From: Lingula anatina
Taxonomy: Eukaryota > Animalia > Brachiopoda
Direction of reading: 5' to 3'
Assembly (NCBI GenBank): GCA_051362555.1
Contig: CM120643.1
Coordinates: 10,478,001 to 10,542,000 of the forward strand
Length of the DNA stretch: 64,000 bases
Shown here: positions 32,701-64,000 of the stretch, piece after piece
How positions within the stretch are numbered: position 1 is the stretch's first letter
How the letters are laid out: the number at the start of each line of letters is the position of its first letter
Made by a program: the position numbers and the translations under genes
The notes under the pieces: model-generated
Seen by the model: only the letters and a program-made list of their open reading frames with translations
Database searches by the model: none
What the model was told of the DNA's origin: nothing

Positions 32701-35700
32701 GAGACATTCTCTAATTTAAGGTCAGCAAAGGCTGTCTCATGCTGGTTTGCACAAGGTGTGGTCATTGTTATGGAGATACCATGAGTCAACCTCGGCCGGT
32801 CAGTGAAAGCACTTCAATCCAACAAAATATTATAGGACAACAACCCCCCCCCCCCCCAACCATGACAACCCCCCAACCAAGGCAGGTGTATTCAGGTACT
32901 ATTATTACTAGCAAGACTCGGGGGGGGGAAATGGCAGACAGTATGCCGCTACTCAAAGTGAACACTCTTAGTTGTCAATGAATTTGCTACAGGTACAGGT
33001 AGGTACATTATATTGTCAGGCCCTAGCCAGAAATTTTTAAAGGGGGGGGGGGGGGGGGGCAGTCCGAAAAAGGGGGCCTTTTACCATGAAACCTTTGTCA
33101 CCTAGTTCAAGTTTAACCAAGAGCAGACCTTTTCCCTGCAAAAAGGGCCATTCATTTTAACACCCCCATTAAATTAAGATTATTTTGGCTTTTATTATAA
33201 GTTAAAAATTCACAGAAGAGGAAAATAAATCTCAAGTGTTTGAGTAACAATGTAATGCAGCAACAACCCAATTTTGCACTCAACTCAACACAAGGCACCA
33301 ACTGCAACCTTGGATCATTGCTGCATTGAATGCAATAATTAAAAAACCAGTACAAGAATTTTTTCTCTTCAGTCTGTGATATCACATGAAGTATAGAATA
33401 AAGTTTCAGACATCAGTTTTGTTCAACACAAAATATAATTCATTAAAAAAAATTCCCAAAAATATGCTTTGTGGGTAATATGTAATGATTTGATAAAAAA
33501 ATATGGAAATGTTTGAAAAAAAAAAAAAAACTGTTAAAAACAGTGTGCAATATGTCATAAAATTTTCCTTTCTTGAAGCAGTTTTTATAAAACTACATAC
33601 TAGTACATGTATAAACAACTGGACAAATCAAAACATAATACAGTATTTACCTCCATTTACAAATGATAGTTGACTTAATGTTGTAAAGGATATTTCTGTG
33701 AGCAACTAAAAATAATAAAAAGTAGGGAAAAACAAAATATCCAAAATGAGAGAGGTGCCCCCGGTGTAACATGAAAATCTGACTCCCCCCATGAAAATTT
33801 GACTCCCCCTCCACAAAACTTCATAAATCTTATTTTATTTGAGTATATGACTGTGATCTTGTAATATGTAAAATGGAGGATACATTGGCACTTTTTTTAG
33901 TTTGCAGGTGAATATTTTCATGAAAAAATAAGAAAATTAAAAATGTGCACTTAACCGCCCATTGTCTCCCCTATGAAAAAGCTATTTATATATGATATTG
34001 GATGATCATTTCTACATCTTTCCTTTAAATTTACTTTATGAAGATTATATTGGAAATATTTGAGAGTTTGATGGTAAACTATTGGGTGAAAAAAAAATAG
34101 AAAATTAAAAATGTGCATTTTATCACCCAATAACTCCCCTATGAAAAAGCTATCTATTTAATATTTGATGATCATTTCAAGACCTTTCCTTTTAGGATAC
34201 TTTATGAAAAATATATTGGAAATATTTAAAAGTTGATGATAAAATAGTGAGTGAAAGAATGAAAAAGAAATCATGAAAATCTTCATTTTTATACTCATGA
34301 CATTTGGACTCCCATGAAGAAAAAGACCTATTTTATATTCAGTCACCATACCATTGTTTTCCACATAGTTTGCACAGAGATGTACATTTTGTTATTATTT
34401 GAAAGTTTGGTGGTGAAAATTTTGGTGAATATCTTTAAAACAAGTATTCATCTTACTACCTGTAGGTTTTGCACTTCCATGTCAAAACGCTACATTTTTA
34501 ACTCAAGAAATTGGCCCCATCGCCTTTTTACTGAATTCCTCTTATATAGCATACCCAGCATTTTACCATTCAAACTTTCAAATATTTCCAATATATTCTT
34601 CATAAAGTATCCTTAAAGAAAAGATGTCAGAATGATCATCAAATATCAAATAGATAGCTTTTTCATAGGGGAGTCATAGGGTGTTAGAATATAAATCTTT
34701 AATTTTTTCTTATTTTTTAATGTGTTTTTTTTTTCACCCAATTCTTTTACCATCAAACTTTCAAGTACTTTCAATATATTCCTCATAAAGTATCCTCAAA
34801 GAAAAGATGTTGAAACGGTCATCAGATGTCAAATAAATAGCTTTTTCATAGGGAAGTCCTTGGGTGGTAAAATACAAATCTTTAATTTTTTTTATTTTTT
34901 CATGAAAATTTTCACCTGCAAACTAACAAAAAGTGCCAATGTGTCCTCCATTATGCATACTACAAGATCATAGTCATTTACTCAAATTAAATGAGATTTA
35001 TGAATGTTTTTTTGGGGGGAGTCAAAATTTCATAGGGGGAGTCAGATTTTCATCATGAAAATCTGACTGGGGAGTCACATTTTCATAATGAAAATCTGAC
35101 TGGGGAGTCACATTTTAGGGAAGTCAGATTTTCATGGTTCACGTGTATTAGAAAATTTAAATAATTACTGTTACAGTAAGGTATGTAGAAAGGATAAACT
35201 ATAGACTGAAAACAGGTAGAAATGATCACTTACAAAATGTCCTGGTACTTTCCATGCATTCATGACACATCAATGTATATGTATGAATTAAAAATTAATT
35301 TCCCACATTTATATCCTTCCAGATGAAGGTGAAAAATGAAAGGATTATGAATATGTATGGAAACTGAACTGAAAGCCTGAGGACAGCATGACTGATTTCA
35401 CCTGAGGGTTTCTCTGCATCCTGTGCTATTAAAATTCATTTCATGGCATTTTGAGACTGGATCCCAATGATGATACCTTGCAGTTGGTGATGTGACATTG
35501 GATGCAACAGTTTGTGCTACAGTGCATCTACAACAGTATACTGAATCAAGGGTACAATTGTTCCAAGTTCTGGCATATACATGTACATTTATGTATATAC
35601 AGGGGAATTGCATACATAAATACAATTGCTCTGCATTGGATATCAGGTGTATATAATGAGAAAGATACAATGAAACTGTGAATATGAACAGATTAAAAGT

Positions 35701-63200: not shown

Positions 63201-64000
63201 ACCAGTCCAACCCCCCCCCCCCCCCTCCAGGCTGTACGACCCGTACAACCTTTCTCTGGTCACTTTCATACAGAGGTGAGACGCCTCTCTCTACACCACG
63301 CTGAGGTGAGACGCCTCATGCAGTACGCTGTACACAGCTACGCACACACACTCCATCAGATATAACTTTAATCTGATATATCAAATCACTCCTTCACACA
63401 AACGTAACGAAGGAAAACAAAGGGAATTAGAGCATTAAATCTCAACCCCGAGCGTCCCACCAACAATCTCTAAGCTTTTAACTAGGGGCGCTGTCAAAAC
63501 ACACGTCCCCAGGGGCCCAGCCTTGGATCGTGTTATTTTGATCTGAGGTAGTTTAACTAAGGCATGAGCCGACCACCCCCAAACAAAAAACAAATACGTA
63601 TTTGATATTTGATGATCATACTGACATCTTTTCTTTGAGGATACTTTATGAGGAATATATTGAAAGTACTTGAAAGTTTGATGGTAAAAGAATTGGGTGA
63701 AAAAAAAACACATTAAAAAATAAGAAAAATTAAAGATTTATATTCTAACACCCTATGACTCCCCTATGAAAAAGCTATCTATTTGATATTTGATGATCAT
63801 TCTGACATCTTTTCTTTAAGGATACTTTATGAAGAATATATTGGAAATATTTGAAAGGTTGAATGGTAAAATGCTGGGTATGCTATATAAGAGGAATTCA
63901 GTAAAAAGGCGATGGGGCCAATTTCTTGAGTTAAAAATGTAGCGTTTTGACATGGAAGTGCAAAACCTACAGGTAGTAAGATGAATACTTGTTTTAAAGA

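What the first reader, a model, noticed from the sequence alone, without database searches (positions are those of the whole stretch)
34432..64000. >13-kb gene-containing inverted duplication with a 650-bp spacer
Seen: 34432-47725 is mirrored by 48376-64000 around a unique spacer (47726-48375). The host-gene copy is disabled while the nested gene copy is intact, so the net effect is duplication of the nested gene alone. Such large quasi-palindromes are prone to arm-to-arm conversion. Caveat: a few percent divergence is also typical of alleles in marine invertebrates, so a mis-joined haplotig must be excluded. The exon-1 deletion with filler DNA and the non-homopolymer frameshift argue for a real paralogous arm.
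Basis: partly seen in the sequence, partly recalled or inferred. Interest (0 to 1): 0.7.

Follow-up and report, generated by a model that had tools for sequence, protein, structure and literature searches.

The report
Real inverted duplication with broken MORN1
More than 13 kb of this animal genome is repeated in mirror orientation around a 650-base spacer, giving one intact and one broken copy of the MORN1 gene plus two open copies of a glycosyltransferase-like gene nested inside it; a join unique to the second copy is present in four sequenced samples, and the arms likely overwrite each other in patches, which is a known kind of arrangement.

Summary
Real, and of a known kind. The arms (34432-47725 against 48376-64000, cut by the window end) match at 97.3% of gap-free columns. 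The left arm holds exons 1-8 of an intact 10-exon MORN1 (449 aa). The right copy lacks exon 1 (922 bp replaced by 7 bp) and has two frameshifts. A single-ORF GT-A-fold gene (359 aa) in intron 8 is open in both arms. The mis-joined-haplotig caveat is largely removed: the right-arm deletion join is in contigs of 4 of 4 samples (3 studies), one contig carries the spacer with both inverted ends, and arm contigs have 1.6-2.3 times the depth of the join. Divergence alternates in blocks (4.1, 1.2, 4.8, 0.7%), as patchy arm-to-arm conversion would give; no outgroup was available to prove it. 'Net duplication of the nested gene' is shown only at ORF level: expression was not tested, the right copy has changes at conserved residues, and both copies read HDN where 91 of 96 homologues read EDD. 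Closest known: human IKBKG with its inverted partial pseudogene; inverted paralogues in C. elegans.

The parts
34432..47725 (+). Left arm as far as it can be matched in the window (true outer end unknown)
48376..64000 (-). Right arm, inverted; cut by the window end
47726..48375 (.). Unique 650-bp spacer
   Evidence: contigs
47674..47725 (+). Left copy of the perfect 52-bp innermost inverted repeat
48376..48427 (-). Right copy of the 52-bp innermost inverted repeat; a 52-bp contig at about twice the neighbouring depth in X1 and X2
48428..48434 (-). 7-bp filler at the exon-1 deletion join of the right arm; resembles the adjacent far flank
   Evidence: bridged by contigs in 4 of 4 runs
46752..47673 (-). 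Left-only 922 bp: MORN1 exon 1 (46763-46826), its donor and upstream region
28489..46826 (-). Intact MORN1-like gene, 10 exons (46826-46763, 45899-45828, 45500-45291, 44951-44861, 44472-44385, 43914-43698, 43397-43271, 41970-41834, 30303-30097, 28625-28489), 449 aa, all introns GT-AG; model from homology, not from RNA
49288..53359 (+). Broken MORN1 copy, exons 2-8; 1-bp loss in exon 2 (about 49322), 4-bp duplication in exon 7 (51787-51790); splice sites kept
35940..37019 (+). Nested single-ORF gene in MORN1 intron 8, opposite strand; 359 aa, N-terminal membrane anchor, predicted GT-A fold, HDN at the family's EDD motif
58443..59522 (-). Second copy of the nested ORF, 359 aa, 35 nt and 19 aa differences
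60815..63603 (.). Right-only insertion of 2771 bp between two copies of a 9-bp target-site duplication (60815-60823, 63595-63603)
44041..46740 (.). Low-divergence block, 18 of 2594 sites (0.69%); candidate conversion tract
39883..42563 (.). Low-divergence block, 31 of 2580 sites (1.2%); candidate conversion tract

Best explanation
This is a real inverted segmental duplication of at least 13 kb around a 650-bp spacer, likely formed once by a fold-back or template switch just upstream of MORN1, in which the second MORN1 copy is broken while the nested glycosyltransferase-like ORF is open in both arms, and whose arms are likely homogenised in patches by arm-to-arm gene conversion. Shown: the geometry, the three lesions in the right MORN1, the two open nested ORFs, the deletion join in four samples and the block mosaic of divergence. 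Inferred: (1) the origin by fold-back or replication template switch; (2) loss of exon 1 by end joining with a short locally templated filler, at or after the duplication; (3) release of the right MORN1 from selection, then frameshifts and a transposon-like insertion; (4) conversion as the cause of the low-divergence blocks. Untested: whether the right nested copy is expressed or useful (about even odds).
For: 4 runs laid (4 samples, 3 studies). The filler join at about 48431 is bridged in 4 of 4. The spacer-to-repeat join 48375|48376 is bridged with 31 or more letters on both sides in 2 of 4 (X3 record 17, X7 record 24); X1 and X2 reach 30 letters past it. X7 record 24 (802 bp) runs from the arm through the spacer and ends in 46 letters of the inverted repeat on the opposite strand. 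X2, X3 and X7 carry spacer alleles that differ from the window (2, 5 and 7 other letters plus gaps), so they are not copies of the assembled haplotype. Depth of arm contig against join-bearing contig: 94.4/50, 138.3/60.3, 32.3/20.2, 121.7/70.3 (1.9, 2.3, 1.6, 1.7). X1 shows two spacer alleles (33.8 and 19.1) that sum to about the join depth, so the join is probably on both homologues. Three independent lesions lie on one arm. Mosaic: blocks of 4.09, 1.20, 4.83 and 0.69%; at non-coding sites alone 4.56, 1.24, 5.81 and 0.79%; the observed variance and the longest run were reached by 0 of 5000 permutations. A further 99.2% block lies at the outer edge. Nested pair dN/dS 0.31, Fisher p 0.0014.
Against: One search used short-word contigs over 613 bp only. 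They show adjacencies, not whole molecules; only 78 bp of arm were covered; the tool warns that contig depth is no copy number; X1 may be the source of the assembly. The left end of the spacer was seen only through one contig (X7). No outgroup or population haplotypes of the arms were available, so conversion is inferred from clustering alone. Nd = 20 fits one neutral plus one constrained copy if neutral divergence is 4.6-5.5% (P 0.06-0.40). An indel-free neutral ORF has P about 0.25. The right copy carries S72C (S in 90 of 96 homologues) and L308P (P in 0 of 92).
Confidence: 0.72

Rival explanations
1. Assembly artefact: two haplotypes of one locus joined head to head.
For: A few percent divergence is plausible for alleles in marine invertebrates (own knowledge). 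No molecule spanning arm-spacer-arm was seen; only 613 bp were laid.
Against: The deletion join is in 4 of 4 samples; the spacer has both inverted ends in one contig of an independent haplotype (X7); arm depth is about twice the join depth; X1 has two spacer alleles. No N gap. A null allele with three lesions would have to be present in every sample.
Confidence: 0.04
2. Young duplication without conversion: the divergent blocks are old allelic variation brought into one arm by ordinary crossing-over between homologues, and the near-identical blocks are the unrecombined original.
For: The lowest divergence is next to the centre (0.69%). Clustering tests cannot tell conversion from a haplotype mosaic; PMC3966223 (passages) warns about methods that rest on identity distribution alone.
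Against: Divergence does not rise steadily outward (0.7, 4.8, 1.2, 4.1, then 0.8% at the outer edge). Allelic difference at the spacer is about 1% (5 and 7 other letters in about 565 bp), well below 4-6%, though from one short stretch. Two frameshifts, a 226-bp indel and a 2.8-kb insertion imply time.
Confidence: 0.14
3. Real duplication, but the whole right arm, nested copy included, is neutral and decaying; the nested ORF is open by chance and partial conversion. This differs from the best reading only in the fate of the nested copy.
For: Changes at conserved residues fall more often on the right copy (S72C, L308P, H163Q, I242M). Nd is compatible with one neutral copy. An insertion lies upstream of the right copy.
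Against: pN/pS 0.32; against dS of 7.2% the one-neutral model gives P 0.001-0.006. No stop or indel in 1077 bp, whereas about 940 bp of right MORN1 exons carry two frameshifts.
Confidence: 0.45

Closest known systems
Human IKBKG (NEMO) and its partial pseudogene
   Same: Segmental duplication with two copies in opposite orientation, one with the functional gene and one with a partial pseudogene (35.7 kb; PMC13760178, one passage read). Recalled, not checked: the pseudogene lacks the first exons and the arms also carry intact CTAG1A/B.
   Different: Arms here are 94-97% alike, not >99%; the spacer is 650 bp (about 22 kb for IKBKG, recalled); the co-duplicated gene is nested in an intron.
Large palindromes of primate and mouse sex chromosomes
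   Same: Inverted arms >8 kb around a unique spacer; rearrangements concentrate near the centre and small spacers are least stable (PMC8327919, passages), which matches the exon-1 deletion 52 bp from the spacer. Conversion in cis between arms (PMC11890787, passages; 10.1101/800185, listing only).
   Different: Fails the >99% identity criterion; homogenisation is patchy; chromosome type unknown; one arm's host gene is broken.
Fold-back inverted duplications (Hermetz et al. 2014, PMC3907307)
   Same: Short unduplicated spacer (766-70,466 bp in 21 junctions) and short locally templated insertions at joins (passages).
   Different: Those are de novo human rearrangements with terminal deletions; this one is shared by unrelated samples. 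The 650-bp spacer is just under their range, and inverted microhomology cannot be scored without the ancestral state.
Adjacent inverted paralogues with conversion in Caenorhabditis (hsp16-48, hsp70-7/8)
   Same: Invertebrate inverted repeats with a spacer of a few hundred bases (416 bp for hsp16-48) and conversion reaching into introns; tracts of 12-2958 bp (PMC3966223, passages).
   Different: Small heat-shock modules with both copies working; here >13 kb, a pseudogenised host and a nested gene.
Host loss in duplicated nested pairs (lrrtm3 kept without ctnna3 in clawed frogs, PMC3933685)
   Same: Host and nested gene duplicated together; a nested gene persists after loss of its host (abstract read). 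Un-nesting is rarer than nesting (PMC8467205, passages).
   Different: Ancient vertebrate duplications with the host fully gone; here a local, partly decayed copy with the original nested pair intact beside it.

Membership tests
Large palindrome (definition of PMC8327919) | Inverted arms longer than 8 kb | tested here: met
   At least 13.3 kb on the left
Large palindrome (definition of PMC8327919) | Arm-to-arm identity above 99% | tested here: not met
   97.3% of gap-free columns, 93.8-94.8% by BLAST; only the inner block and the outer edge exceed 99%
Large palindrome (definition of PMC8327919) | Unique spacer between the arms | tested here: met
   650 bp, no second match in the window; parts match dispersed repeats elsewhere in the genome
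Arm-to-arm gene conversion | Tracts of identity longer than the background divergence allows, introns included | tested here: met
   0 of 5000 permutations reached the observed variance or longest run at 8823 non-coding sites
Arm-to-arm gene conversion | Shared derived changes in both arms against an outgroup or across haplotypes | not testable with these tools
   No genome held; the run labelled organism B holds next to none of the words
Fold-back inverted duplication | Short spacer at single copy between duplicated segments | tested here: met
   Arm contigs at 1.6-2.3 times the depth of the join-bearing contigs in 4 of 4 runs; a rough measure
Fold-back inverted duplication | Inverted microhomology at the spacer join | not testable with these tools
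   Needs the unduplicated ancestral locus
Inverted gene/partial-pseudogene pair (IKBKG type) | One intact gene and one copy without its 5' exon, in opposite orientation | tested here: met
GT-A glycosyltransferases (nested gene) | GT-A fold | tested here: met
   Model pLDDT 80, pTM 0.73; best PDB matches MGAT1 (1fo8, E 6.5e-07) and MGAT2, TM-scores only about 0.3; no Pfam or PDB sequence match
GT-A glycosyltransferases (nested gene) | Acidic metal-binding DxD-type motif (EDD in this family) | tested here: not met
   HDN in both copies; EDD in 91 of 96 homologues; also Q69 where 94 of 96 have R. That this EDD is the metal-binding motif is inferred from its position and from recalled MGAT1 knowledge
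Hammerhead ribozyme (motif in the insertion) | Match to an Rfam hammerhead model | tested here: not met
   0 Rfam matches at E <= 0.1 in 28000-64000; the core was read by eye from a recalled consensus and has an extra A

The most novel reading that the evidence does not exclude
A population-wide, small-spacer quasi-palindrome in an invertebrate is a snapshot of un-nesting in progress: the host copy was destroyed at its first exon, which frees a second, expressed copy of a nested pseudo-glycosyltransferase from host transcription, and conversion is excluded from the blocks where the copies must differ.
Probability: 0.15. Interest if true: 0.6.

Novelty: new member of a known kind. Interest (0 to 1): 0.35.

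Why it matters
It shows that a >13-kb inverted duplication with a sub-kilobase spacer can persist in a natural invertebrate population and should not be purged as a haplotig. It offers a side-by-side test of conversion and of nested-gene regulation with and without host transcription. The nested protein belongs to a large family without a Pfam model and has lost the family's acidic motif. None of this is a new mechanism.

Tried and rejected
No whole genome is held, so the outer end of the arm could not be found. A word-index search with the nested protein gave 0 hits among 465 candidates; the full HMMER search gave 613 hits at E <= 0.001, so the first blank meant nothing. Pfam and PDB sequence search gave nothing above cut-off for this family. 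The ESM Atlas did not answer. tblastn found no MORN1 exon between exon 8 and 30303. The earlier-findings index returned nothing by place, words or sequence. Paper searches with no hit; these are narrow term sets and do not show that the locus or arrangement is unpublished. A read-level palindrome artefact was rejected because the arms differ by 2.7% plus 64 indels. A donor-like GTAAGT at 48339 in the spacer is expected by chance and was not pursued. No supplements were read.

Full report
Observation. Self-BLAST of the window shows 34648-46751 matching 60823-48435 in reverse at 93.8-94.8%, and 34432-34835 matching 64000-63599 at 97.3%. The innermost match is 47674-47725 with 48427-48376 (52 bp perfect, 55 bp with one mismatch), leaving a 650-bp spacer without another match in the window. 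The match is still perfect at base 64000 (142 identical bases), so the arm is cut by the window. No genome is held, and the outer breakpoint is unknown.

Host gene. One exon found 55 proteins among 69 candidates, most named MORN repeat-containing protein 1. tblastn and splice-site fitting give a 10-exon gene on the minus strand from 46826 to 28489, all introns GT-AG, 449 aa, 38-57% identical to the 12 best invertebrate and fish hits. The model is from homology only. The hits suggest an invertebrate animal; the organism was not identified. In the right arm 46752-47673 (exon 1, donor and upstream region) is replaced by 7 bases that resemble the adjacent far flank. I read this as end joining with a templated filler (inference; such local insertions are described in PMC3907307, passages). 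Exon 2 has lost one A of three and exon 7 has a 4-bp tandem duplication. Exons 3-6 differ by only 3 substitutions, and a 242-codon frame remains from an internal ATG. Exons 9-10 would map beyond the window.

Nested gene. 35940-37019 (+) and 58443-59522 (-) are open 359-codon frames in intron 8, opposite to the host. A full HMMER search finds 613 relatives at E <= 0.001, about 27-45% identical over residues 55-240 for the 150 listed; 3 of the 8 looked up are named uncharacterised mollusc proteins. With 96 homologues aligned, the model (pLDDT 80) matches GT-A enzymes, best MGAT1 and MGAT2, at modest TM-scores, behind a hydrophobic N-terminal anchor. Both copies read HDN where 91 of 96 homologues read EDD, and Q where 94 of 96 read R. 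The protein is therefore likely a divergent or inactive enzyme, and this change predates or is shared by both copies. The copies differ at 35 bases; dN/dS is 0.31 (Fisher p 0.0014). That does not prove both are constrained. With neutral divergence at the intron level, one neutral plus one constrained copy fits (P 0.06-0.40), while at the synonymous level it does not (P 0.001-0.006). The right copy has S72C and L308P.

Real or mis-joined. One search listed 10 DNA runs holding the stretch or part of it, from 4 studies. I laid 4 of them (X1, X2, X3, X7; 4 samples, 3 studies) on 47900-48512. The filler join is bridged in 4 of 4. The spacer-to-repeat join is bridged by 31 or more letters on both sides in 2 of 4 and by 30 letters in the other two. 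X7 record 24 crosses the spacer and ends in the inverted repeat on the other strand. X2, X3 and X7 carry spacer alleles unlike the window; X1 matches it and may be the assembly's source. Arm contigs have 1.9, 2.3, 1.6 and 1.7 times the depth of the join-bearing contigs. In X1 two spacer alleles (33.8 and 19.1) sum to about the join depth (50), which argues against a heterozygous deletion allele; that part of the spacer also overlaps a dispersed repeat, so the sum is rough. I put the odds that the duplication is real at about 95%.

Divergence mosaic. Change-point analysis gives four blocks: 34900-39882 at 4.09%, 39883-42563 at 1.20%, 42564-44040 at 4.83%, 44041-46740 at 0.69%; 34432-34810 is 99.2% identical. 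The contrast holds at 8823 non-coding sites, and 0 of 5000 permutations reach it. Selection cannot explain it, since the sites are intronic and one host copy is broken. Spacer alleles differ by about 1%, close to the low blocks and far below the high ones. The simplest reading is an older duplication with recent conversion tracts of up to about 2.7 kb. A young duplication with allelic blocks recombined in is not excluded without haplotypes.

Mechanism. Likely order (inferred): a fold-back or template switch upstream of MORN1 copies the gene backwards; exon 1 is lost at the centre during or after this event; the headless copy gathers frameshifts, indels and a 2771-bp insertion with a 9-bp target-site duplication; conversion resets parts of the arms. 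The nested ORF survives either by selection or by chance, at about even odds.

Comparison. The arrangement resembles human IKBKG with its inverted partial pseudogene (PMC13760178, passage) and inverted, converting paralogues in C. elegans (PMC3966223, passages). It resembles sex-chromosome palindromes in shape and in central instability but fails their >99% criterion (PMC8327919, passages; PMC3403216, passages). Survival of a nested gene after host loss is described for lrrtm3 (PMC3933685, abstract). Searches returned no paper; they were narrow. Verdict: a real, well-supported new member of a known kind, interest 0.35.

Noticed in passing
window 60815-63603: Composite insertion with a 9-bp target-site duplication. 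It holds two 97% direct repeats of about 480 bp (62084-62565, 63077-63563), each with a hammerhead-like core (starts 62166 and 63161, one extra A; the second has a palindromic stem III), which recalls Penelope-like or retrozyme elements (recalled). Rfam found nothing.
   Followed up: partly
window 35940-37019 and 58443-59522: A family of at least 613 GT-A-fold proteins without a Pfam model; this member has lost the near-invariant EDD and R69.
   Followed up: partly
window 33771-35116: Foldback-like element: 166-bp and 183-bp tandem units in inverted orientation (82%) with short terminal tandem repeats; the right arm has three 183-bp units where the left has two.
   Followed up: partly
window 10916-12488: 392-bp inverted repeats (98%) enclosing a 35-bp minisatellite of 15 copies (11302-11819); likely a non-autonomous DNA transposon.
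   Followed up: no
window 47726-47785: The spacer begins with what looks like one end of a dispersed repeat (recalled motif), cut at the arm boundary; this may mark the new join, or a spacer flipped by crossing-over between arms.
   Followed up: no
window 13785-16315, minus strand: Exons of a von Willebrand factor A domain gene (Pfam VWA in 2 of 4 ORFs scanned there).
   Followed up: no
window 1733-8072, plus strand: Ser/Thr-rich mucin-like ORFs with membrane-anchor-like ends (5005-5496, 6250-7602, 7734-8072); no Pfam match for the two scanned.
   Followed up: no
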